Shown here in pieces: positions 2,571-48,730 of a stretch of DNA of 64,000 bases. A program made the position numbers and the translations under genes. The notes beneath the pieces are model-generated. The model saw only the letters and a list, made by a program, of their open reading frames with translations. It did no database searches and was not told the DNA's origin. The first letter of the stretch is position 1. The number at the start of each line of letters is the position of its first letter. Source of the DNA: Lama guanicoe (taxonomy: Eukaryota); NCBI GenBank assembly GCA_013239625.1, contig MU053557.1, positions 4,928,123 to 4,992,122 on the forward strand. The letters run 5' to 3'.

Positions 2571-5500
2571 CTTTAAAAGAAAATAAAGAGACATTAGGTT
2601 TCCAACCTTGTTCAATTAAACTGCTTCTTATTCATTAAATGGCATCTCTATTCTACTTTGTTCAATTGTATCAAAATAAAACATCATAAGTAGAACAGAT
2701 AATGAACAAACTCAACACTCCAATCGTCTTTTACTAGTCCGTATCAAAAAAGCAAGATAAAAAAAGTTAAATGGTTGATCCTTGTCAGCGGAACAATTTC
2801 ATAGGCTCAGTTCATTACACACTCAGGAGCCTGTCTTCAGAATTTCTAAAGTAGTGGGGAAATGTATGCATGGCTTGAATAGCAGAGTTGTTGACAGGTG
2901 TGCTGTGTGCCATAATGAAGCTGACATCCTGTTACTACTAGTAAACAAGCATGGGATTTTAAAAACTAAATATGAAAAACTATCTGGAACTCTTCCATTT
3001 AACAAGGGCCACTCCCTAGTATGCAAACAGAATGTTGGTTATCTAAAGTAAGACAACTCTGGAAGTTTGATACTGACAACAAAACCAAGATTTTTATTTA
3101 CTAAAAATAAGCATTTATAAAATAAGCATGCATTTCATTTCCAACTGACATTTAGTTATGCACATGGTAAGTTTAAACTTCTAGAAAACATAACAAGTTG
3201 ATCTAAAATCTTAAAAAAAGTACTTCAGTATTTATTTAAATCAAGTGGCTTACAACAGTTTAAATGAGCTAACTAAAAACCAAACTAGATAAACAAACAA
3301 AAACACCAAACTAGCATTTTAGAACAAAATAATACTTAGAGCTATATCTCATTTATATGGTACACAGGGAATAAGGTACTCATTTTTAATATAGCTAATT
3401 GTTAAAAGCAATTCAGGTTTACTCTCCATGATTAAAACCTTTACAAGAGGAAGAAAAAAACCAAACAAAAGTATTCTTAAACAAAACAACAAAAAAACCC
3501 ACAAAATAAGCCAAAACAAAACAAAACAACAAAAAACTACCCCAAACCCAAAATATATTCATATTTACCTACTTTCTAAAGCAAAATAAGCTTAACTTAA
3601 AATTTTAGACTTTTTCATTAATCACTTACTATGGGTTATATCTATAAAGTTTATCAAGCAAAGCAGGTCTCTGTGCCCTTATACTATGTAGCCCTACACT
3701 ATTTTTTTCTAGTTATACCTAATTTTGTAGTTCTTCTCATTAGGGCGACACAAGGTCCCTTATGCCGAAGGTTACAGTCTGAGATGCGCTGGGAAACCTG
3801 ATCACCTAGACTGTTAGGGTTTACATCAAAAAATAAATTAAGCAAGTTACTGATTTAGGTGAAAAAGATATGACCAAGTGCTTCTTTTAGGAGGATGAAA
3901 AATAACTAAGATACTGTCTTAGTTATCTGTTGAATGGCAAAGACTGAGGTTTGAGCTTCTATAAACCATGGTAACAATGAAATACTTATTTCTCTTGGTC
4001 TACTACAAAAGAATGAAGACTAAAGTTTTAGTAAAATGTAACTGGATGAGAGCTCTCTAGTATGATTAAACTCACTTTTAAAAAACCCACTTCTTAAGTA
4101 ACTGAGTTATTATAAAATAGAAATATGAAAGTAAATGTTATAAAACACTAAGAGAAATAAAGCTCATACTCTTGTTTCTTTTGGTATGAAAATTAGCTCA
4201 GTATACAAATATTAAAATGAGCAAAATACACTCTTAGGTGAAACAAAAAAAAGTATGACTAAGTTCAACAGATTCACACTGAAAAGCAAACAAAGGAAAA
4301 CAAATATAAAAGGACATCCAGCGTTATGGTACTTTAAAATGAACCTTAAGAAATTATGTGGGTTATAAATGAAAAGTGATTCGGACATAGACTCTTCTCT
4401 AAGGGTTATTTTCTAGGATTGCTTCCTTTACTACCCCTAAAATGGAGGAGAAAAATAATAGGAACAACTTTGACATGATTATGTCTGATGGTAACATTCA
4501 TGTCTAAAGCTACTTTTAGTAGCTCCATTTGCAACTCAGTAATCATTTTATCACAATTAAAAGACTACTTTATAAAGATTAGGTGTTCACTAGAGAGTTC
4601 TTTTCTTATACAACTCTAAAGGAAGAAATCTAACTTATTAAGAAAATAAAAAATGTAGACACTATTTTCCTTATGTATCTCAATTTTTAATATCAAAGCA
4701 AAAAACAACAAAGCAAACAAATTTTAAATTTCCTTATAAAAACTGAAAATAAGCCAGGAAAAGTAATGCTACTGCTAAACAAAGGTATCCATTTTAAGAG
4801 CAAACAACCAAAAGGAAAACTACTTAAAATAAAAAAATTTTAAATCTCTTGATAGTACATTATCTTCTAGCACCTATCAGGCTTCCTTAGTAACTCTTTA
4901 CATTTTGAATTTAAAATAAATAAAACATATAATGAAAGTGTAATGAAACCATGTAATACCAAGGATATAAGCAAACAGCTACAAATATGCAAAGGTAAAA
5001 CCAAACAAGGAAAAATCAGTATTCAATAAGTAGTAAAACAATATATTCTTATAGATTTGCAGATGCAAAGAGAAGTCTAATCTCTTTGGTATGTCAAGTT
5101 GCTTTTCTATGAATTTTAACTACATGTTCTAAGCAAAATTTGTGCCTGTTTTAAAGAATGCAGCATATTCTTCAAAGGCATGTAGAAATGAGTTAACGTT
5201 GGCTATACTGAGATAACTCTACTTATCAGAGGTGCACTTCAGAAACATTACTGCCAATTTTAGTTTTTGGCATTTGAAGCAGTTTTTCTCTTAACCAGGG
5301 GTCACATTTCCCTGTCCTTCCAAAAAATTCACAAGGTCACTTTTTCTCATAATCCAGATAAACTATATGTAAAGAGTATGACCAATTCAATACAATTTTA
5401 TGGAAATTATTAAATGATTATGTTATACTTATATTTTAAGTAAAAATGTGCAAATGTATGGATAAGTAGAAACAGGGCAGTACAGATGCTTTACAGTGTA

Positions 5501-6659
5501 CCTAATTACCCACCATGTTACACCTCTCTGCCCAACCAAGATCTAGGCACCACAGTTGGTATTTGTGAATAAAAATAAAATTGAATTTCTGAAACCTTTC
5601 TAGCAGCAGGAGAATGTAGTCCTTGAAATAATACTGGGCAGTATAGAAATGGATGAAATGATTACCCAGATGATGTATGTGATTTAATTAAGGAACTATA
5701 AAGTATGCTCACACATCAAATGCATCTTTGATTGCTCATGCCAATACTTCCTCAGTATATACTAAATTGAATGATAAAAATTCTTTTGTTTAGGAGCTTC
5801 AAAATTTACAAACCTAAATGTGTTTTTTTAAAGCTATTTTCCCTTATCTGGAAATTAATATAGTAATAAAGCTATATAAATCCTATAAAACTAAAATAAA
5901 ATGTGAAGAGTTCTGCTTACATTAAAAAAAATTAGAAAATTATTGAAATGTTTATCTAGCCTGCTAACACTAAATCAGGTTATGCATTTGTTTAATATAT
6001 CTTATGTGCTACTAATGGGAATTGATAAGTGCTTCAATTATATTACCATTATTAGATATATATTAGAATACAATGTATTCCAGTTCCAGAACATATAATG
6101 CTCTTTAAGCATTTTTTGCCACTTGGTTGAAGGTGAGAGAATTCACATTGAGGTAAATCAATTCTGGAAACACTAGATCTGAAATCTGATCTACACTTAC
6201 CTGAAGATCATTAGGGAAGGGGAAGATAGCTGAGGCAGAATACATTCATCACACAGCACTGATGCAACTGAATTTAGATGTATATAATTTCATGCATTAA
6301 GTTCTGCAACTCCAAATACATTTTAAAAAACTAAACAGTCTACTTCAAGTTTACCATTAGGTAAAGAATTTCAATACACCAACATATTTCTTCATGTGGA
6401 TGTTAGAGATCTAAACATAACCCTGTTTTCATTTAGGTTTTCTCTAAACTTTGGAAGCTTTAAGCAAAAGCCACAAAGAAACATCTTAGTAATGTTATAT
6501 GTTTGCCAAGTATGTCTGAATAATGCCAACGTAAGAGGTGCTTGAGTAAGATCTACATTCTCCAGAATTAAAACAAAACAAAAATAATCAAAATAAAACA
6601 ATAAAAAAGAAAAGCACATGAATTTGGGATTGAGGTTGGAATAGGAGACAGTTTCAGAC

Positions 6660-6743
6660 CTGGTTTAATCCTGAGAAAGATGGGTCCTGAGAAGTACTAA
6701 CAGTCATGCTTCTTTTCCTCTTCCCCACTGGAGATTCTAAACA
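6660..6743 (-). CDS. CSNK1A1: CK1 alpha alternative 'L' insert exon, 28 aa (CLESPVGKRKRSMTVSTSQDPSFSGLNQ) with a basic NLS
   Basis: 84 nt, phase 0-0; acceptor tttag|TGT, weak donor CAG|GTCTGA; matches the known CK1alphaL insert. Confidence 0.95.
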
Positions 6744-8941
6744 CTAAACAGACAATAGAGGGTGGCAGTGCATCAAACAGTATTGCTTACATTGCAACAA
6801 TGGCCGGCGCAGACAGGCAACACCGAGGCATTAGAGAAAGAACAGGGTAGCCAAATGCCATCCTTCTTCCACCAAGCACTGTAGCTTCTCAGTTTTCCAA
6901 ATAAGAATCACATGCTTAAGAACATTTGAATTCTTTACTCAGGTTTTTAATGCCACTATATTGTGTCACTGCCTGAAACAGGGATAGCAATGGTGACATT
7001 TGGCTCTTTAATTTTTTAATCAAAAATGGGGAATTTGGATCTGTAATCTTTGGTACCACAATCTGCCCTTCCCCCAAAAAAATATTGTACAAGGGAAAAA
7101 ATCTTCAGTAAGGAAGAGGTAGAAGGCATTTAGTCACCTTAAAATTTATTTTCATAAGCATGCAGGGCTGATTACTGGAAGAGATGAGTAAATTCACTAA
7201 GACTGGAGTGACTACTCCTAAATATCAAATTCAGAACAATTTTCCAAATAAGAAATTTGACTTTAAAAATCAACCTCAAAAGCACCCCCTCCACTCTTTC
7301 CCACAAACAGAAAACTACTGGAACGAGCTACCAAGAATCCAGTCTCATACAATTGGCATTTTTTAAACTACAATACAGAAAACACTAAAAACCAACTACA
7401 TAAACAAACACTAATCCAAAATGTTCAAGAACAACATTTAGAATCTGAACCTTAGGTAAACACTGCATTTTTACCACTGGGTCTCTCTGAATCTGTATGG
7501 CAGCAAAGCAGCTTCACAATATTCTTTACTATCTCTAAAAGAGGACACAAGATTCTATAAAGGTTTACATATCACTAAGCAATTTGGACTTCTAACACAA
7601 CTATGTGATTAATAAGCTATTTTTAAAGGAGGGGGGAGCAAAGAGGAATTATCTAGGCCATCATTAAATTTAAAACAAAAACCATGTACTGCAATGTCAA
7701 CATGCAGAACACGGATCACATGATAATGGATCTTTAGCAGAAAGAAAATGGGAAGGAAAAGGGCTTGGGAAATGGTCAAAATATTAGGGTCAGCTAACAA
7801 AAGTGCCCCCCAAAATTAAGACCAGTAATTTTTTTTTCAATTAAATTACCAGGTTATACAATGAAAATTAAGAACCTGGATGCTTCAAAAAGAGAAGCCA
7901 CATAATATTAAAAACAAAAAGATGCAATTTGGGAATGGCAAGAAAGGTTATATGTAGATTTAAACACCTTTTATTATTTAAAGCTAAGCTTTCAACAACA
8001 AAAAAACCCCTTAGATTTCCTAAAACTTGGTCAGAACAACATTAATGTCTCACACATAAACAAATAACACCAGTTCTAATGGTAATGGCTCTAAGTTGGC
8101 ATTCATACAGGCAAACAAAGGTAAACATTTATAGCTAGACCTAAAAACACCAAACATTCCCTAATGGTTTAATAAAACACATGGGAATAATCCTTCCAAA
8201 AACAAAACAAAAAAACACAAAAAACCCCAAAAAGCCCCCAAGTTGTCCTGAAGTTGACAAATTTCTATCAGATCATCAGATCACAACATGCTTAGTGCAT
8301 TGCCAATGCTGCCTGTCTGCCCGAGCTCAACATTGAAATCGGTAAAGCAATTCACTCAGTAAAACTAATCATTGCAGAAAAAATTCAACATAATTAGTTT
8401 CTAACTGCAATCATACGTCACTAGCTAAAACCCAATGACCCAATAAATTCAATCATTCTGGGACCTCCCCTCAATAATGTATGAATATTCATTTCACTTG
8501 TCTCTATTTTCCTTAAAAAGGGGAGAAGAGGGGTGGAGAACTCACCCAACTTGGCATCCAAATAAAAACTGTAAACTACTTTTGAAGCACGCCCCAAATT
8601 ATCCTTTTGAATACACAAATCCAAGGACTGAAGAATTCTCATTATCAACCATGCTCAGTCAGCAAATGTTAACGCCATGGTGACAGATATGTCAGTGGTT
8701 TCCACACTGGCACAAGCACATGTATTACAAAAACCCACACTTCAGAGACAAAGGTTAAAATCTAATTTTTAGCATTCAGGAAGAAAAGTTCATGGGTTTT
8801 TTTTTTTTGACATTTGAATGAATGAAAAAGATACAATTTTTGAATAGTTAAATGATATACATGATTTACATTTCATTATAAAGCCCTTGGAATTTTATAT
8901 TTCCACATAGATAACTAATCTTGGTTAAGTTGGAGAGAATT

Positions 8942-8992
8942 TATTTCAAGTTACTAAGTTAATAGAGTATTTCAAGTTACTAAGTTAATAGA
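8942..8992. repeat. Perfect tandem duplication of 25 bp
   Basis: tatttcaagttactaagttaataga at 8942-8966 and 8968-8992. Confidence 0.97.
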
Positions 8993-9135
8993 TTATCCTT
9001 TTAGCACAATCTTTTAAACCAATTACCAATAGCAAATTCAACTTACTATGACTTTATAAAGACTGAAAAGTTCACCAAAGCAATTCTTCAAGTTTTTTAC
9101 TCTTTGTGCTGTCATGCAAAGAACATTTGACTAAC

Positions 9136-9234
9136 CTTATTACAGTGACGCCCAATACCCATTAGGAAGTTATCTGGTTTAATGTCTCTGTGTATAAAAT
9201 TCTTTGTATGCACATATTCAATTCTACTGATCAT
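9136..9234 (-). CDS. CSNK1A1: CK1 alpha exon 4 ([33 protein letters not shown])
   Basis: 99 nt; acceptor ttccag|ATG, donor [17 protein letters not shown] catalytic loop; translated by hand (not in the ORF track). Confidence 0.98.
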
Positions 9235-12747: not shown

Positions 12748-12874
12748 CTGGTCAGCTAACATAAGTACAGTTTTCATTGTGAACCTTCTTGAACAGAAAT
12801 TGAAGAGGTCTTCGAGGCTGGGTCCAAGAAGATCCATGACTAGCACATTGTAGTCTTTTTCCTGACCATACCAC
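12748..12874 (-). CDS. CSNK1A1: CK1 alpha exon 3 ([42 protein letters not shown])
   Basis: 127 nt; acceptor ttag|GTGG, donor CAG|GTATGT; CK1 signature [10 protein letters not shown]. Confidence 0.98.
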
Positions 12875-15800
12875 CTAACAAAAGGGGGAAACGAAAAGGA
12901 AGGGCATTATAAAAAGTCAGTATCACCAAATATTAAAAATTTTTAAGTAAGAATAAGACAGTTTTTCCTCTCTGGTTAGGCTTTACTTAAAGTTAAGTTT
13001 TCCTCTGTGCAGTCAATGAACCCACTAACTCACTAACTGACCACATTGCCCAACACAAAATAAGGGTAAAGAGTGACCTCATTGTTCTATTAAGTTAGGA
13101 CTTGTGTGGCAGACTTAACACTCCTCTTACCAGGGCAGGTTAATTCTATACCCAACTGCCACTGATGCCTGTGACTTTGGGCAAGTTCCTTAATTTCATC
13201 TGGTCTACTTTCTAACTGGAGAAATGAAGGAGATTACACAGCCATTCCAAAACATTTCAAAAAGCAGAGATATCTTTTATTGTAACTGTTTCATTTCCTA
13301 CCAAGTTTTATTAATAAAGTTTTTTGCTTAATTTCAGATTACAGAATCTGAACAGTATTACCACAAAGATGACATCTGCTTTTTATGGAGGAATCACGCT
13401 TTTAATTATCCCATGTTACATTACTGCAGATAAACATACCACTTGTATCCAATAATTTTAGGCATATCAACTGCTAATTTCAGAGACTTCAATCCAAGGA
13501 CTGGGAATCACTGCAATAAATGATTTCAAGTTTCTATATGCCTCTAAGTCTGGTAGGGGTAATTTTCTAAAAATGAGCACTACTATTTTTATTTCAAACT
13601 AATCTAGATTATGAATTCAGCTTGAAAAGAAAACTGGCCATTATTTAAAATATTAAAAAAAAGCAGAAACAAACAAACAAAAACAAAAAAAAGGTGTGGG
13701 GGAGTATTTTACAGCTAGACTGGAATGATTTTTTTTGTTAACTCTAGTTAAGACTGATACCAGGATTTACCATTTGAAAAGTTTATTTAAAAAATTTTCA
13801 AAACAGGGGAAAAGAGCTTAAAAAATATATATGTGTCAAAAGCATTAGTAAGTATTGGTCTAGTGGGAACCTGTCTACTGCTTTTCACTCCTTTTTAAAA
13901 ATTTTGCTGTAATGCAGGTTTTTAGTTGATATGAAAGAAAACCAAGACTGAAACTAGCTAATATGGGTTTAATATCTTAATAATTATATTTTTCTAAAAA
14001 ATGCAAGCATGGCCCCATATTCAGATACAACGAATATACTCCCTGGAATCTTACGTAAAGATCATAAAGGGACTAGGCTTAAAAAGTTCACATTCCTTAC
14101 TACATTTTTGCTTCAACTGTTCCAGAGGACTATTTCCTAACATGACACATGAGTAACTATCATCAAACACATAAAAAGGTATTCATTCTCACACTGACTT
14201 TGTTAAAAAAAAAATTAAAAAAAAGGTAGGTAAAGACTTTCTGTTTAACCTTATAGAGACTGTCCCCACTAGCCTAAGAAAAGCAACAGATTTGTCAATG
14301 GTAGAGCTGGGCTGTGCTTATTGCACCTAAAACTGTGTTCAAAGCTGCTTTAATTTTCCCTTTTCTAACCTTATTTTCCATATAGGAATTCAATACCCTT
14401 CACATTCATTCAAACATTTACTTCAAAGAAAAGCTCACGGTGGTGGGTTTTTTGTGGGGTGGGTGTGTAGGTGGGTGAAGATGGATAAAACATAACAAAT
14501 AATAATATTAAAAGATAAGTGATTAACAAAGTGAAAAGGTTATGTTCTCCTTTCCTGGAATTTCCTCTGTTTATTCTGTTTTCCTTCCTTTTTTTCCGTC
14601 TTCCTTTACTTAACGGCAGAGGCAGATCTGTGCTAGGAAGCTGGCAGGAACCAGCCTTTGCCATTTTAAATGTCCAATCGTTAAGTGTTAGAGAGGATTT
14701 TTTATGTAAATCTAATTTATCTAGGTTTTAAAGGAAAAAAGACTCTATACAAGAACACCAACTCCAGAAAGAGCTAAGGCAATGACAGGAAGTCACAAGA
14801 AGTCAAAGGCAAAAGGGAAAGCATAAATCAACTCTCTTAAGATTACAAGCCATGTCTACACAAGCAGATGTGCATCAATGGCTACGTAACAAAACTACAA
14901 TAAACAAGTAAAATTTACAACCACCCGTGTCCAAATACAAACCGGAAATATAAAAGGCACAAATTTACACTTCTTCATGTAATTATACAATTTCACAATG
15001 CACTTTATGAGAAGTCATCTGCAAATTAAGCCTTTAACAGAATACTCTAAGTCAAGCTAATGGGCACTTCTATCCTTATTTGTTTACTTAAGAGATTTAG
15101 ACAGACCCACTATTTGCAACGTCAAAAAGAAAAACAGTCCATAAAGAAAAAAACCTGCTAAAACATAAATGTTTCAAAGGCATTTCCTCTATGGAACAAC
15201 TATCCATTTCTAAAATAATTAGGATTTTTGCTTAGAGATTGGTACTATAGCTCCTTAAACCTAAGTGACAGGTGTTTCTATCTTTCATACTTCCTTTTGA
15301 TCTCAAGGAATAGATAGCTTTATTTCTCTAAAGCTAACACCTCATTCCCTCCCCATCTGTGCTTTCCATCCAGATATTATTACACACAGATTAGGAGCCA
15401 GAAACAGTCTTCTGCTTATCCAAATCCTACTTTTAGTCAGTTCTACCTTCACTTCCAGGTTTTCCACTTCTATTTTGAGAGCTTCTAACTCCCCATTTCA
15501 ATTTTGAATGCCAAAGAAATCTTCCTTAAGTAGCCTATCCTACAGTGTTTTCCCATTTCACGGAATTCCCATAGCCACTGACTACTGCTTGGATCCAAGA
15601 TCCAACCCCTTAACAATACAATATTCAAGTAGTTACTTTGGTATTTCTCACTCTATACCTGGTAAGATAGAGCTTAATGTTCAGTCCTCACAGAACCTAG
15701 GTAATGAGCAAGTACTAATCTGATTCTGAGAGCATTTAAGTTTGCAGATTAATTTGAAACATAGCAACATGAAAATTTCACTTCTGTTCTTCACTTTAAG

Positions 15801-16404: not shown

Positions 16405-17284
16405 GACTACAGGTTAATTGTATGCATCATTCTAACTGGGCTATGGGATGCTGGAATAGCTGGTAAAACATTTTGGGGTGTCTGTGAAGGTGTCTCCAGA
16501 GGTGATTAGCATTTCAGTAACAGACTAAGTAAAGATCACCCCACACCCAAAGTGGGGCCAGGGCTGGGGTCCTGAATAGAACAGAAAGACAGAGGAAGAG
16601 AAAATGTACTCTGCTAGAGCTGAGACAGCCATCTTCTCCTCCCCTGGACATCCATGCTCCTGTTCAGACATCAGGACTCAAACCAGGACCTAAATTAGCT
16701 TCCCTGGTTCTCAGGCCTTCAGGCTTGACTAGAACTACTGCTGGTTTTCCTGGGCCCCTAGCTTGCAAGATCACACATCATGGAACTTTTTAGCCTGTAT
16801 AATCACCTGAGCCAATCCCTCATAATAAATGTCTTCCTGTGTATCTATAAGCAGATCTTGATTTATTGTTCTTTACAGATATCACGTTTTACATATTCAA
16901 GTTTTGCGGCAACCCTGTGTCCAACAGCGTATTGGCACCATTTTCCAACAGTATCTGCTCACTTTGTGTCTGTCACATTTTGGTAATTCTCACAATATTT
17001 CAAACCTTTTCATTATTATTGTATTTGTTATGGTCATCTGTGATCAGTGATTTTTATGTTTGATGTTACTACTGCAAAAAGATCACAACTTGCTGAAAGC
17101 TCAAATTATGGTTAGGACTTACTACACTATAGCGTAAACATAACTTTATGCACTGGGAAACCAAAAAGTTTGTGTAACTTTGCTTTACTGTGGTGATCTG
17201 GAACTGAACCTGTAATACATTCAAGGTCTGCCTGTATATATAATCCATCAGTGCTGTGTCTCTGGAGAATCCTAACACAATACA
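16405..17284 (+). mobile_element. MLT2 (ERVL LTR) interrupted by a Tigger1 derivative
   Basis: MLT2-type start (ggttaatt...ggtgtctgtgaaggtgtctccagaggtgattagcatt) and end (tctctggagaatcctaacacaataca) separated by the insert at ~16849-17234. Confidence 0.8.
16849..17234 (+). mobile_element. Internally deleted Tigger1 DNA transposon
   Basis: Tigger1 5' sequence (ggcaaccctg...tgctcactttgtgtctgtcacattttggtaattctc) joined to its 3' end (tgcactgggaaaccaaaaa...ctggaactgaacc...gcctg) followed by TA. Confidence 0.85.
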
Positions 17285-21915: not shown

Positions 21916-22992
21916 AAAAAACTTCATGCTACTTCCCAATAAACAAAGTAGCTTTAAATCAGGTCTCACACTCCCCTTTCCACAGAAGCCACCTTAAGGA
22001 CAGAATAGTCTGGCAGTGCAGGGAAATGTAACTACTCAGAGGAGCTTCCGTATGAGCTGAAATACAGAACAGCCTCAATTAAAAAAATTAATTTGTAAAC
22101 CTCTCCACTGTACACTTAATGAAGGCACAAATGAAACATGATATATGCTATGTATGCTTAGTCAGTGTCACCATCTTGTCTCCCTTAAAAAAAATTCTGC
22201 AGTACAAAAACTGCAACTTTGAACCAAAAGGAATTTCAAAAGGCCAATTCACCACTGAGATGCTAATAAATACTTAAGCTAACAAATGTCCACATTAGCA
22301 AGGCTTTACCGTGAAATTAATGGACATTAGTATTTTATGATATGGTAGTATCTTTACATCAGAGTTCAAAGCTAAATGAATTGATTCAGCCATATTTCCA
22401 TTTGTAAATTGGCTCCCAGCTATTCAGTTCAGCTGAATTCACTTCAGAAACACTTAAGTACTATAGAGATAAGTATTTCCATTAGAACTAAGGAACTATG
22501 CATGCACCATGCACTCCTAAAATTCTATAAATGTGCAGGTTCCTTAACTTCCCACAGAGTTCCTTTGAAAAAGTAAATACACAGAGAAAATATGAGCAGA
22601 ATTTCCTTATTATGAATACTTAGCACCTTTTTACCCAACACTTCGCTAAGAAACATGAAACACATTTCCATCAGCATGAGGAAGTTCTTTCCCTCAAAGA
22701 GTTTCTAGAAGGCTTTCTCGCAGGACTGCAGATGAGACATGAACAGGAAAATGATTTCACGTACTGGTTTTAGATACTTTTCAGAAATCAAAGCATTTGA
22801 TTGTATGGGATTACAGTATCCCAACCAATACCAAGTTTCCTGGTATAGGATTTCCTGAATGCAACTCCTAATTCATATGAGGTAGTAAGTAAGTTAAGAA
22901 TCCAGCCGTATCAAGTTGTGCTAGGAAAAGATGGAGATCGGTGGATATGGACAAGGAACGACTATAATTAATCTCTGAAATATGGTGCAATA

Positions 22993-23173
22993 CAATGGTC
23001 CTTCAACTTGGCTACACATCAGAATCACCTAGGGACATTTTATAACTCATGGTATCTAAGTCACACCTCCAAAACCAATTAAATCAAAATTTTGAGATTA
23101 GGAGCCAGGTGTCAATTTTTTTTTAAAAGTTCTCTGCATGAATCCAATGTGCAGCAAAGTTTGAGAACCACTG
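22993..23173. mobile_element. MER5A-family hAT DNA transposon
   Basis: caacttggctacacatcagaatcacctaggg...aatgtgcagcaaagtttgagaaccactg. Confidence 0.7.
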
Positions 23174-23589
23174 ATACAGTTGAAAGAGACATTAAGACCT
23201 ATGCAAATAACACATTAGCTGTATGACTTTAGGCAAATTAACCATTGTGACTTACACTTTATATAAAACCCCAACTCACTGGGTTGTTGCAATGATTAAA
23301 TGAGACCATGTGCAATGCCTGGATAGTGGGTGACTTTTTTTTCTTATACGCAGATGGGAAAAAAAATGTTTAGCTACACTAAATTCAAGCTACTACCCAC
23401 TTATTTCAAAGCACATATCAATGTTACGAATAAAAGGCAACAATGATGTTAAAACAAATTGTCATTGCATCATAGAATGTTAAGAGGTATCTTTTATTCT
23501 ACAGATCCCATCAATTTATATAATGCATTACAAAAAACCTTTTAAGACCTAATTTGTATTACAAAATCTCTTTTAGAAATGAAAGCTGA

Positions 23590-24397
23590 GAAACGTAGAT
23601 CAAAACTACAATGAGGTATCACCTCACACCAGCCAGAATGGCCACCATTAAAGTCTACAAACAATAAATGCTGGAGAGGGTGTGGAGAAAAGGGAATCCT
23701 CCTACACTTGTTGATGGGAGTGTAGATTGGTGCAACCACTATGGAGGACAGTATGGAGGTTCCTTAAAAAACTAAAAATACTTACCATGTGATCCAGCAA
23801 TCCCATCCCAGGGCACATACCCAGAGAAAACTGTAATTCAGAAGGATACACGCACCTCAATGTTCACACAGCAAATGACTGGATAAAGAAGATGTGTATG
23901 TGTATATAAAAATGGAATGGAATACTACACGCAATGGAATACTACTCAGCCATTAAAAAATAAAACGATGCCATTTGCAGCAACATGGATGGAACTGGAC
24001 ATCGTCATTCTAAGTGGAGTGGGCCGGAAAGAGAAAGAAAAATGCCACATGGAATCTTAAAAAAAAAAAAAAAGACACAAATGAACTACTTATGATTTAT
24101 AACTTATATGATTGATTTCTTGAATATGTGTAAGCACATTTGACTGTCCTGACTGTCCTTTATGATTAGATTACTGTATTCTGTTGATTCTTCTTCTGTG
24201 GTTGGCTTTATTACTTTGATAATCATGTCAGTTTAAAAGCTAAAGCTCTAAACTGTTCTTAGAAACAATGATCAGTACATATATGTAAACTAAAAAAGTA
24301 TGTGCAATACATTGTATATATGTATTAATATGCAATATATTGTATATGTGCAGTCAAACTGTAGTAATTCTACCTAACAAAACTGAAAAATTAAAGA
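23590..24397 (+). mobile_element. 5'-truncated LINE-1 with an atypical 3' segment
   Basis: L1 ORF2 3' sequence (caaaactacaatgaggtatcacctcacacc...atggaatactactcagcc); TSD AGAAAT(G/C)AAAGCTGA at 23575-23589 and 24398-24412. Confidence 0.9.
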
Positions 24398-29613: not shown

Positions 29614-29720
29614 CGTATGTGGGGGATGCCGACCCCACCTTGAAGAATCTTATAGAGTTTGCTCTCGTACAGCAACTGGGGATGCCTGGCCTTCTGAGAT
29701 TCTAGCTTCACTGCCACTTC
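29614..29720 (-). CDS. CSNK1A1: CK1 alpha exon 2 ([36 protein letters not shown])
   Basis: 107 nt; acceptor ctgcag|GAA, donor CG|GTAAGA; contains the VAVK catalytic lysine. Confidence 0.98.
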
Positions 29721-30249: not shown

Positions 30250-31420
30250 GTGCATGCGTGCGGTGGGAAAAGGCCCGAACAGTTTGGGGATGGGGGTGAG
30301 GGGCGGTGAGGACAGGCGCGGCGTTGTCGTGAACCCCACCCCAGGTGGTTACCTCGCCGTTGGTGATGTTGATCGCCAGGTAAATGTCCCCGAAGGAGCC
30401 AGACCCGATCTTCCGTACCAGTTTATATTTCCCTCCGACAATGAATTCGGCCTTGGAGCCGCTGCTGCTCGCCATCCTGAGAGACGAAGATGGAGGCTGG
30501 GGCTAAGCCCCGACACCTCTAAGGGGAGGACGAAGGCCGCTAGAGCTCGTCCACCGAGCAAGGCTGCTGAGGGCGGCCGGAAATGGAAAACGTTGGCTTT
30601 CTCGGCGCTACAGGGACCAGGATCGGCCAAACGGAACCTGATCACCGCCGCTGTCAGGTTTCTTTTTGCCAGGCCGCAGATTGTTGAGGGGGTTCTGACG
30701 GTTACCAGTCTAGGCCACTTCTTTCTCGGCGGACGCCGCTGCCTCGTTTTCGCGGCGACGTCGCGGGCTGGAAAAGAGGCGCGGTGAGTTAGGGCGGCGA
30801 TACCGCTGCCACCACTGCCGCCGGCTCCCGCCCGGAGAGACCCCTGTCACTCCGCCGACGCCGCCATCTTGTTACTCCGGCTCCAGCCAACACAAAATGC
30901 CCCCAGTCCCCGGGAGCCGCTTCTTCACGGCGCAGAGCACTCTGGGAAAAGGATCGCGGGCGCTAGCCCCGGAGGGTCGACAGCAACAGGGAGGGCGGAA
31001 CCGGATCCGTGAGAGTCGCGGCCCACGCTCCGAGCGTCATCCCGTCACCGCCCAAATGCGCATGCGTACTGTAACCCTGCGGACTGCACAGGCGTGCGGT
31101 GGCCTCTCCTCACCCCCGCCCCGGGCTCATTTCCACTTCCGGTCGTCGGTTGTACCGCGGTTAACTACCTGTTAGTCACTTCAGACCGGTCCGGTTTCCG
31201 AGAGGCTGCGCGGCCTCAGGCCTCGAGAGCATGTTAGGGAGGAGTCACCTTCATTTTTCGTGGAGGTTGGAAGCGTCAGGCCTCCTTGGGAGTCGGGTAT
31301 TGACCTTTGCTCTTTGTTTGAGGCGGTTTTTAACATTTTCATCTTTACTGGGCGACTCCCCCAACCGGCCTATTACAGCCCATTTCTGTTTTGAACGAGG
31401 CTGTCGCCTCTGGTGGAGAG
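30250..31420. promoter_or_regulatory. CSNK1A1: CpG-island promoter and 5'UTR of CSNK1A1
   Basis: Dense CpG. YY1 (CAAGATGGCGGC, minus, ~30860-30871), ZNF143-like TTTCCCAGAGTGC (minus, ~30937-30949), NRF1 TGCGCATGCG (31057-31066), GC box (31114-31122), ETS/GABP ACTTCCGG (31135-31142); no obvious TATA box. Confidence 0.9.
30353..30475 (-). CDS. CSNK1A1: Casein kinase 1 alpha, coding exon 1 ([41 protein letters not shown])
   Basis: ATG at 30475; CK1alpha N-terminus with the GxGxxG glycine-rich loop; 123 nt ending at donor GAG|GTAACC. Confidence 0.98.
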
Positions 31421-40388: not shown

Positions 40389-41439
40389 TTTTCTCACTTT
40401 ATTCAGGTCACTGCTAAAATATTTTCTCCTTAGAAACACTTTTCGAGACCAAATTATTTAAAATAGCCCCTTACACCCCCCCATACCCAGTTACTCTTAA
40501 GCTGTTTACCCTATTTATTTTCCTTCACAATACTTACTAGTATCTAAAATTATATATATATTTTACCCTTGTATTGACTTAGCCTCCTTCACTAGAACAC
40601 TTGCTCAATGAGACAGGAACTTTTTCTGTCTTGTTCACTAATGTATCCCCAGAACAGTGCCTTCCTCAATAATAGCTGTTGAGTGACTGAATACACCCAC
40701 CCACCCACCCACCCACACACACACACACACATATATATACATATACACACCCACAGATACCCACATGCATATGTATACGTATAACGTAGGTTTACATATG
40801 TACATGTTCAGCATTTGGCTGTGAAACCTGCTTTTTTATTTATTTAACTATCTCCTGCTGATAGTTTTTGGTCTGTTTATAGCTCTTCACTTTGATTTTT
40901 TTAAAAAGTCACAAACCGCAACCTTATGCATACATCTTTGTGCATCTGTGTGTGGATTTCTGTGGGATAAATTAATAGAAGTGAAATTTCTAAGTCAAAA
41001 ATATTTTGTCAACTCCCACTCTTACAAATTGGTTACACCCTTGCCCACCCAATTGCTTATCCTTAGATGTGAACAGCAAGCCTTTGAGGCTGTACTCCAG
41101 GGTGGTAAATGCACACTTCAGGACAGGGAATTAGTTTGCTTTTCTCACTAGACTTCTTTCTCATGCAGCTTCCAAGAAAGCATTGCATTGACTCAGCAGA
41201 GGAGATTTCCAACTAGAAAGTGATGAATAAAAATCAAATATTACAATAATTCAGGCAATACTTTAAAAAGCCCTGGCCAAATATTTTGATTGTAGTTTTA
41301 CTTGGTGGTGCGGGACCAGATTGAAACACAGCAGTTAAAGGGAATTGTTCATAAGGAAGTTTAATCAAAGGCTGGCTCTACTCCCAGCTCTTTTTGACTT
41401 CTCCTCAGTCTTTTTTGCTGTCTCCCTTTTCTCTGCCTG

Positions 41440-45696: not shown

Positions 45697-45729
<33 letters not shown>
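45677..45729. repeat. (CAGA)n(CA)n compound microsatellite
   Basis: Direct reading. Confidence 0.95.
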
Positions 45730-48685: not shown

Positions 48686-48719
<34 letters not shown>

Positions 48720-48730
48720 TGTATGTATGT
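48682..48730. repeat. (TATG)n microsatellite
   Basis: Direct reading. Confidence 0.95.

What the first reader, a model, noticed from the sequence alone, without database searches (positions are those of the whole stretch)
6782..8351. Long-range RNA duplex (~50 nt, ~1.5 kb apart) docking just upstream of the CK1alpha L exon, with strand-specific G-U pairs
Seen: 8301-8351 and 6782-6830 form an imperfect inverted repeat. In the pre-mRNA (minus strand), GCAGACAGGCAGCAUUG (8320-8304) pairs with CGGUGUUGCCUGUCUGC (6825-6809) over 17 contiguous bp: 14 Watson-Crick and 3 G-U. Pairing extends with bulges to AUUGC/GCAAU. Those three positions are G-U on the transcribed strand but would be A-C mismatches on the other strand, which points to selection on RNA rather than a DNA duplication. 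The proximal arm retains CpGs in an AT-rich intron and ends 39 nt upstream of the L-exon start, ~9 nt from a possible branch A (UUGAU, 6773). ACUAA and GCAUG (8291-8287) lie directly beside the distal arm. Established: 'RNA bridges' bring distal RBFOX sites to exons such as those in ENAH and KIF21A. Inference: this duplex regulates inclusion of the NLS-bearing L exon.
Basis: partly seen in the sequence, partly recalled or inferred. Interest (0 to 1): 0.85.

Follow-up and report, generated by a model that had tools for sequence, protein, structure and literature searches.

The report
Long intron helix before CK1alpha L exon
Two unique, GC-rich stretches 1.5 kb apart in the intron before the alternative "L" exon of casein kinase 1 alpha can form a very stable 44-base-pair RNA helix next to the exon's branch point, which probably tunes how often this nuclear-targeting exon is used, although neither its conservation nor its effect could be tested here.

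Summary
On the transcribed (minus) strand, 8351-8301 pairs with 6830-6782 in 44 bp (39 Watson-Crick, 5 G-U, no A-C apposition). The energy is -53.0 kcal/mol, against -44.2 on the other strand. The 17-bp core is as described.

Both arms lie in the 2,392-nt intron between exon 4 and the 84-nt L exon of CSNK1A1. The helix ends 9 nt before the likely branch A.

- Chance: 0 of 228 intron shuffles reach its energy, but 2 of 12 whole-window shuffles do, both in GC-rich promoter blocks.
- Signs of RNA-level constraint: the arms are single-copy, each is the other's best partner over 31 kb, they hold 5 of the intron's 10 CpGs, and the core pairs with probability near 1 in a 2.7-kb fold.

These signs come from one genome only. 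No orthologue, read data or catalogue entry could be obtained, so conservation, covariation, RBFOX binding and any effect on the L exon remain untested.

Best reading (0.45): a splicing-regulatory long-range helix of the known "conserved complementary region" kind, most likely damping L-exon use. The RBFOX-bridge version is possible but weaker. It would be a new member of a known kind, of moderate interest.

The parts
8301..8351 (-). Distal (5') arm of the long-range helix, 51 nt, 49% GC, 2 CpG
6782..6830 (-). Proximal (3') arm, 49 nt, 55% GC, 3 CpG; its 3' end lies 39 nt upstream of the L exon
8304..8320 (-). Core of the distal arm: 17 contiguous bp with 6809-6825 (14 WC + 3 G-U, -29.6 kcal/mol); pair probability about 1.0 in a 2,676-nt ensemble
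6809..6825 (-). Core of the proximal arm
6831..8300 (-). 1,470-nt loop closed by the helix; single-copy, AT-rich intron sequence
8287..8296 (-). ACUAA (8296-8292) and GCAUG (8291-8287), 5-10 nt 3' of the distal arm, at the loop end of the helix
6772..6776 (-). UUGAU, the best match to the yUnAy branch consensus; A at 6773, 30 nt upstream of the 3' splice site and 9 nt from the helix end (predicted, not mapped)
   Evidence: consensus recalled
6744..6766 (-). Polypyrimidine tract and AG of the L-exon 3' splice site
6660..6743 (-). L exon, 84 nt, 28 codons, carries the PVGKRKR nuclear localization signal
   Evidence: motif named in PMC11255964
6652..6659 (-). L-exon 5' splice site CAG|GUCUGAAA (C at +3; my reading: weak)
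6744..9135 (-). Intron between exon 4 (ends GRHCNK at 9136) and the L exon, 2,392 nt, 34.6% GC, CpG o/e 0.14; holds 6 GCAUG
8364..8376 (-). Weak optional outer extension pairing with 6769-6781 across the branch region (adds about -5.4 kcal/mol after a 12-nt bulge; A 6773 stays unpaired); may be chance

Best explanation
The two arms form a cis-acting long-range helix in the CSNK1A1 pre-mRNA. The helix is 44 bp and about -53 kcal/mol. It lies wholly within the intron upstream of the alternative L exon and closes a 1.47-kb loop. Its outer end sits 9 nt upstream of the predicted branch adenosine. It therefore covers the roughly 20-nt stretch 5' of the branch site where U2 snRNP proteins must contact the RNA (the 'anchoring site'; recalled knowledge). 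I take it to be a selected splicing-regulatory structure that tunes use of the L-exon 3' splice site. The most likely effect is to damp L inclusion, which fits the L-less isoform being predominant. Proteins that unwind or bind double-stranded RNA, or that bind next to the helix, would then be able to change the outcome. Shown: the helix, its position, its stability, its uniqueness and its composition. Inferred: that it forms in vivo, that it is conserved, and the direction of its effect.
For: Helix anatomy and energy. 0 of 228 intron shuffles reach it. Gene-body parts of 6 of 6 whole-window shuffles stay at or above -43.4. Each arm is the other's best partner over 31 kb of pre-mRNA (-54; next best -42 to -45, partly promoter CpG island). 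The core persists in the MFE of a 2,676-nt stretch with pair probabilities 0.86-1.0; the outer part has 0.27-0.74. DNA-level similarity stops exactly at the arm ends. Arms and loop are single-copy in the 2.05-Gb genome. The same search gave 41 matches for the window's next-best duplex, a repeat hairpin. All 5 transition differences are G-U on the transcribed strand. The arms are the two most GC-rich 50-nt windows of the intron and hold 5 of its 10 CpGs. That is about 0.5 expected at the intron's background rate (Poisson about 2e-4, my arithmetic). Apart from 2 islets beside the promoter island, only 7 CpG/GC islets exist in 26.6 kb of introns, and the arms are two of them. L-less CK1alpha is the predominant isoform (PMC11255964, passages).
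Against: No cross-species, RNA-seq, crosslinking or mutational evidence of any kind. Energy alone is not window-wide significant: 2 of 12 shuffles reach it. G-U asymmetry is only 5:0 (P about 0.03, weaker if transcription-linked mutation bias is allowed for). GC-rich arms are partly selected for by the search itself. CSNK1A1 does not occur in the main text or the 5 held supplements of the human catalogue of conserved complementary regions; the full catalogue is a browser track that is not held. That paper reports that the most stable pairs tend to lie away from splice sites and that such regions tend to avoid branch points. The direction of the effect is a guess: a helix that shortens the intron could equally favour L inclusion.
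Confidence: 0.45

Rival explanations
1. Neutral inverted repeat. A fortuitous match or an old small inverted duplication forms a helix in silico, and perhaps in vivo, but has no selected role in splicing.
For: Window-wide shuffles reach the same energy in 2 of 12 cases. Real sequence holds comparably strong duplexes of no regulatory meaning, such as a repeat hairpin at -47.9. No conservation data exist. The catalogue paper gives false-discovery rates of 10% to over 50% even for conserved pairs.
Against: 0 of 228 intron shuffles. CpG retention in both arms against a 10-fold depleted background alongside about 25% arm divergence argues against both a young duplication and long neutral decay (inference). 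The G-U to A-C count is 5:0. The position is directly at the branch region of a conserved alternative exon.
Confidence: 0.3
2. RBFOX (or QKI) RNA bridge in the strict sense. The helix brings the GCAUG/ACUAA at 8296-8287 close to the L exon, so that a distally bound factor controls it. An upstream-bound RBFOX would be expected to repress the exon (positional rule, recalled).
For: GCAUG lies 10 nt and ACUAA 5 nt from the distal arm. GCAUG is enriched in this intron: 6 against 2.0 expected, and 5 of 300 shuffles reach 6. The reverse-complement control gives 1 against 1.4. The ENAH bridge has the same layout, as described in PMC8052449.
Against: The motif is AGCAUG, not UGCAUG, and ACUAAG is not ACUAAY. 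It sits at the loop end of a 44-bp helix, about 90 nt-equivalents from the 3' splice site. A nearer GCAUG at 6915 needs no bridge. Of 23 papers holding Csnk1a1 and Rbfox, the two with most mentions concern C-terminal events, not the L exon. No binding data were available.
Confidence: 0.12
3. The double-stranded RNA or the DNA has another role. It could be a docking site for dsRNA-binding proteins or A-to-I editing in the intron, or the two GC-rich islets could be DNA-level regulatory elements whose complementarity is incidental.
For: A 44-bp near-continuous helix is long enough for dsRNA-binding proteins (general knowledge). The catalogue paper reports enrichment of editing sites in such pairs (introduction passage). 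Both arms are CpG-retaining GC islets.
Against: Nothing specific points to editing. Incidental 44-bp complementarity between two DNA elements is improbable.
Confidence: 0.08

Closest known systems
[quoted passage not shown] 2021, PMC8052449; passages read)
   Same: Both arms lie inside one intron, less than 10 kb apart, close to a splice site. The energy is far below the -30 kcal/mol limit of their most stable group IV.
   Different: Conservation, which defines a PCCR, could not be tested. CSNK1A1 is not named in the text or in the 5 held supplements. The helix abuts a branch point, whereas PCCRs tend to avoid branch points.
RBFOX 'RNA bridges' in ENAH and KIF21A (Lovci et al. 2013; not held; known here only through PMC8052449, and recall)
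   Same: A long-range intronic helix joins a distal GCAUG-bearing site to the neighbourhood of a cassette exon.
   Different: The motif is not the full UGCAUG and sits at the far end of the helix. There is no binding, conservation or knock-down evidence.
Competing long-range structures controlling exon choice, such as ATE1 (PMC7797038) and BRD2/BRD3 exon 3b (PMC10789245); abstracts seen in the search listing only
   Same: Intronic complementary boxes kilobases apart decide exon inclusion.
   Different: Those systems have validated competing or looping-out pairs. Here the only candidate competitors (5555-5506 and 3807-3737) are weak or scattered.
Intronic helices that shorten the distance from the 5' splice site to the branch point, or mask splice signals (general splicing literature, recalled)
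   Same: The helix removes 1.47 kb from the effective intron and lies next to the branch point.
   Different: The distal arm is still 784 nt from the exon-4 donor, so the shortening is partial. The branch A itself is not paired in the main helix.

Membership tests
RBFOX RNA bridge | Long-range duplex between a site near the regulated exon and a distal intronic site | tested here: met
   44 bp, -53.0 kcal/mol, arms 1.47 kb apart, proximal arm 39 nt from the exon; predicted only
RBFOX RNA bridge | (U)GCAUG next to the distal arm | tested here: met
   GCAUG at 8291-8287, 10 nt from the arm, preceded by A, not U
RBFOX RNA bridge | Duplex and motif conserved across vertebrates | not testable with these tools
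   No orthologous DNA found: 0 loci in four collection scans
RBFOX RNA bridge | RBFOX bound at the distal site (CLIP) | not testable with these tools
   No binding data available
RBFOX RNA bridge | Exon responds to RBFOX level and to disruption and restoration of the duplex | not testable with these tools
   Bench experiment. Papers found with both names do not concern this exon
[quoted passage not shown] | Both regions intronic and less than 10,000 nt apart | tested here: met
   Both in intron 9135-6744
[quoted passage not shown] | Hybridization energy at or below -15 kcal/mol (group IV: at or below -30) | tested here: met
   -53.0 kcal/mol by ViennaRNA duplexfold; their energies come from a different program. 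Thresholds
[quoted passage not shown] | Both regions inside evolutionarily conserved intronic elements | not testable with these tools
   Only indirect single-genome signs: CpG retention, GC islets
[quoted passage not shown] | Listed in the published catalogue | tested here: inconclusive
   CSNK1A1: 0 occurrences in the main text and 5 held supplements; the full catalogue (track hub) is not held
Transposon terminal inverted repeats | Multi-copy element with arms at its ends and target-site duplication | tested here: not met
   Region 6744-8420 has only its self-match plus one 42-nt low-complexity match, and the distal arm has 1 match. A control repeat hairpin has 41 matches. No matching flanks seen

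The most novel reading that the evidence does not exclude
The helix is a vertebrate-wide gate on the nuclear form of CK1alpha. By lying on the U2 snRNP anchoring site of the L exon, it keeps the exon mostly skipped. Regulated unwinding or editing (RNA helicases, ADAR), or competing pairing of the proximal arm with a downstream-intron element (5555-5506) that would loop out the exon, then sets the nuclear-to-cytoplasmic ratio of the kinase, and with it its action in Wnt signalling.
Probability: 0.1. Interest if true: 0.6.

Novelty: new member of a known kind. Interest (0 to 1): 0.35.

Why it matters
The L exon puts a 28-residue insert with a nuclear localization signal into the kinase domain of CK1alpha. 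L-containing variants are nuclear and fail to rescue negative regulation of Wnt/beta-catenin signalling (PMC11255964, passages; PMC7460588). In ten searches of the open-access library I found nothing in print on how inclusion of this exon is controlled. A defined pair of 50-nt arms gives a direct, cheap handle: antisense oligonucleotides or compensatory mutants would test whether RNA structure sets the nuclear share of this kinase. The class of mechanism is already well known, so the gain is specific to CK1alpha rather than conceptual.

Tried and rejected
- **Read data:** There is therefore no read-level evidence on L-exon junctions or on variants in relatives. The 24 runs found hold at most 0.70 of the sampled words.
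- **Orthologue hunts:** a degenerate L-exon pattern and a 24-nt distal-arm string each gave 0 loci in metagenome contigs and genome contigs.
- **Earlier findings of this scan:** none for this place, sequence or gene.
- **Literature:**
  - 0 papers for CSNK1A1 with long-range RNA, RNA bridge, RNA secondary structure or base-pairing terms.
  - CSNK1A1 is absent from the held supplements of PMC8052449, PMC4174434 (one file not searched) and PMC10691357.
  - PMC10573301 has no readable supplements.
  - Lovci 2013 is not held.
- **Rfam:** no family at gathering score in the whole window. The only hit is a sub-threshold snoU31b match at 7178-7232 (22.5 bits against 37, E 0.46), taken as chance.
- **Transposon-TIR origin:** rejected.
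- **Intron-exon helix 7125-7097 x 6739-6710:** 25 bp, -31.6, but pair probability 0.0 in the ensemble.
- **Candidate competitors of the proximal arm:**
  - 5555-5506 gives -42.0, with 10 of its 36 pairs G-U.
  - 3807-3737 gives -43.7, as scattered short helices with a 29-nt loop. Both are within the chance tail.
- **Local traps:** in local folds the arms are paired at background level (0.50-0.65 against 0.59-0.64), so there is neither a special trap nor special accessibility.
- **Failed script:** timed out without output and was replaced by a seeded scan.

Full report
**What the window is.** Six-frame translation places a casein kinase 1 alpha gene on the minus strand.
- Exon 1 is near 30,470, exon 2 near 29,700 and exon 3 near 12,870.
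- Exon 4 ends with GRHCNK at 9136.
- An 84-nt exon lies at 6743-6660, exon 5 near 2,570 and exon 6 near 110.
- The 84-nt exon translates to a 28-residue insert containing PVGKRKR. This is the motif that PMC11255964 names as the nuclear localization signal of the vertebrate-specific L insert (passages).
- The exon-4 piece matches Pfam Pkinase at E 2.5e-6, which is 27.5 bits and below the curated cut-off of 31.7, as expected for 33 residues.
- The intron between exon 4 and the L exon is 9135-6744. It is 2,392 nt long and runs from GT to AG.
- The genome holds 2.05 Gb in 55,231 contigs.

**The observation.** It holds at the stated coordinates.
- The 17 contiguous pairs 8320-8304 x 6825-6809 are 14 Watson-Crick and 3 G-U, at -29.6 kcal/mol.
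The whole 51-nt and 49-nt arms pair in 44 bp (39 Watson-Crick, 5 G-U).
- There are only two 1x1 mismatches (U.C and U.U) and bulges of one or two bases. The energy is -53.0 kcal/mol on the transcribed strand and -44.2 on the opposite strand.
- The proximal arm ends at 6782, leaving 38 nt before the exon.
- The only good match to the branch consensus is UUGAU, with its A at 6773. That is 30 nt from the AG and 9 nt from the helix end (the consensus is recalled).
- ACUAA (8296-8292) and GCAUG (8291-8287) follow the distal arm directly.

**Is it more than chance?** I ran a seeded scan that counts runs of 11 or more pairs (G-U allowed) and scores each seed with 20-nt flanks by duplexfold.
- *Real window:* the pair scores -48.1 and ranks 4th of 3,560 clusters on the minus strand. 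It comes after a microsatellite pair, the promoter CpG island and a CA repeat.
- *Next in rank:* the -47.9 duplex at 23155/23011 folds as a 191-nt hairpin (-59.1 kcal/mol, z -4.6). It belongs to an interspersed repeat with 41 matches in the genome.
- *Intron shuffles:* 0 of 228 dinucleotide shuffles reach -48.1. The shuffle minima have mean -32.6, sd 2.8 and lowest value -41.8. A Gumbel fit gives about 0.0012.
- *Whole-window shuffles in 2-kb blocks:* 2 of 12 reach -48.1, both inside GC-rich promoter-side blocks. In the six shuffles where I recorded it, the best duplex in the gene body was -37.6 to -43.4.
- *Conclusion:* the energy is far outside what this AT-rich intron sequence gives, but as "the best thing in 64 kb" it is only marginal. 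The ungapped repeat finder did not list the pair among its 25 longest of 94.

**Evidence beyond energy.**
1. Each arm's best partner over 31 kb of pre-mRNA is the other arm (-54). The runners-up are -42 to -45, partly in the CpG island.
2. In the minimum-energy fold of 2,676 nt (part of exon 4 to 100 nt past the L exon), the core 8326-8301 x 6803-6830 is kept. In the ensemble, core pairs have probability 0.86-1.0 and the outer part 0.27-0.74.
3. DNA-level similarity between one arm and the reverse complement of the other stops at the arm ends, 8351-8307 against 6782-6822.
4. The distal arm, and the whole stretch 6744-8420, are single-copy. The only other hit is one 42-nt low-complexity match. 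The same search found 41 copies, some at about 70% identity, for the control hairpin. A transposon-end origin is therefore not supported.
5. All five transition-type differences between the arms are G-U on the transcribed strand and none is A-C. The binomial probability is 0.03 (my arithmetic). It is somewhat weaker if transcription-linked mutation bias is allowed for (recalled).
6. The arms are the two most GC-rich 50-nt windows of the intron, at 0.60 and 0.54 against a mean of 0.35.
7. The arms hold 5 of the intron's 10 CpGs. CpG observed/expected is 0.66 and 0.81 in the arms against 0.077 elsewhere. About 0.5 CpG would be expected at the background rate (Poisson about 2e-4, my arithmetic).
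8. Over 26.6 kb of introns, only 9 islets have at least 2 CpG and at least 48% GC. Two of these adjoin the promoter island, and two of the other seven are the arms. Among those seven, the arm pair is by far the best duplex (-55.5; the next is -43.7, made of scattered short helices).
9. About a quarter of arm positions differ, yet the CpGs persist. That combination fits long maintenance better than a recent duplication or neutral decay. This step is inference.

**What could not be tested.** Conservation and covariation are the decisive tests.
- Four collection scans for orthologous DNA found nothing.
- The scan's earlier findings hold nothing on this gene.
- The one call for laying public reads returned nothing.
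- The runs that hold the stretch share at most 0.70 of sampled words, so they are close relatives at best.
- CSNK1A1 is absent from the text and 5 held supplements of the human catalogue of conserved complementary regions and from two related papers' supplements. The full catalogue is a browser track that is not held, so absence is not shown.

**Mechanism.** Both arms are in one intron, so the helix does not loop out the exon. It removes 1.47 kb from the path between the exon-4 donor and the L-exon branch point. It also places a rigid 44-bp duplex from 9 to about 57 nt upstream of the predicted branch A.
- U2 snRNP assembly needs sequence-independent protein contacts in the roughly 20 nt upstream of the branch site (recalled, not read here). 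The L exon also has a donor with C at +3, which I read as weak.
- I therefore favour a damping role. This fits the predominance of the L-less isoform.
- A weak outer extension (8376-8364 x 6769-6781, about -5.4 kcal/mol) would cover the branch region while leaving A 6773 unpaired. It may be chance.

**The RBFOX-bridge reading.** It remains possible, and the evidence is mixed.
- *For:* GCAUG occurs 6 times in this intron against 2.0 expected (5 of 300 shuffles reach 6). Its reverse complement is not enriched.
- *Against:* the motif beside the arm is AGCAUG and sits at the loop end of the helix. A nearer GCAUG at 6915 needs no bridge. The papers found with both gene names concern other CSNK1A1 events.

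**Comparison and novelty.** The structure has the layout of the long-range intronic pairs catalogued in human genes. Its energy is well beyond the -30 kcal/mol limit of their most stable group. It also resembles the ENAH RNA bridge as described there. Membership in either family rests on conservation or binding, which I could not test. If real, it is a new member of a known kind, and it may already sit in the unpublished-in-text catalogue.

**Why it would matter.** The value is specific to CK1alpha. L-containing variants are nuclear and do not rescue Wnt/beta-catenin regulation. My ten searches found nothing in print on how the exon is controlled.

Noticed in passing
window 22990-23180 (minus strand, intron 2): A 191-nt hairpin (-59.1 kcal/mol, z -4.6) belongs to an interspersed repeat with at least 41 matches in the genome at 68-100% identity. 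It shows that repeat-derived hairpins give duplex energies equal to the finding's.
   Followed up: yes
window 7097-7125 and 6710-6739 (minus strand): A pyrimidine-rich intron stretch is complementary to the purine-rich 5' part of the L exon (25 bp, 3 G-U, -31.6 kcal/mol), which would mask a GAR-type enhancer-like run. Its pair probability in the 2.7-kb ensemble is 0.0, so it is probably chance.
   Followed up: yes
window 6669-6732 (minus strand, inside the L exon): In the minimum-energy fold, the purine-rich run of the L exon pairs with a pyrimidine-rich run further 3' in the same exon (6732-6717 with 6669-6683).
   Followed up: no
window 5506-5555 (minus strand, intron downstream of the L exon): A stretch containing a near copy of the distal-arm core (11 nt with one difference) can pair with the proximal arm (36 bp, 10 of them G-U, -42.0 kcal/mol). 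It would loop out the L exon. The energy is within the chance tail.
   Followed up: partly
window 8268-8283 (minus strand): A tandem direct repeat of an 8-nt unit (UGAUCUGA twice) starts four bases 3' of the GCAUG next to the distal arm.
   Followed up: no
window 6744-9135 (minus strand): GCAUG occurs 6 times in the intron upstream of the L exon (9117, 8654, 8291, 7705, 7163, 6915; three as UGCAUG) against 2.0 expected from shuffles. The downstream intron is not enriched (3 against 2.3).
   Followed up: yes
window 3726-3815, 14592-14646, 16890-16956, 22901-22952, 23977-24052: Five further small CpG-retaining, GC-rich islets lie in otherwise CpG-poor introns. They are possible conserved elements of unknown role, and none pairs convincingly with another or with the arms.
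   Followed up: partly
window 45700-45720 and 48700-48720; 40711-40957: Microsatellite or low-complexity tracts (GT-rich against AC/AT-rich, and a CA repeat) give the strongest formal duplexes in the window.
   Followed up: no
window 8198-8239: A T/G-rich low-complexity run in the loop matches one other place in the genome (42 nt, 95%).
   Followed up: no
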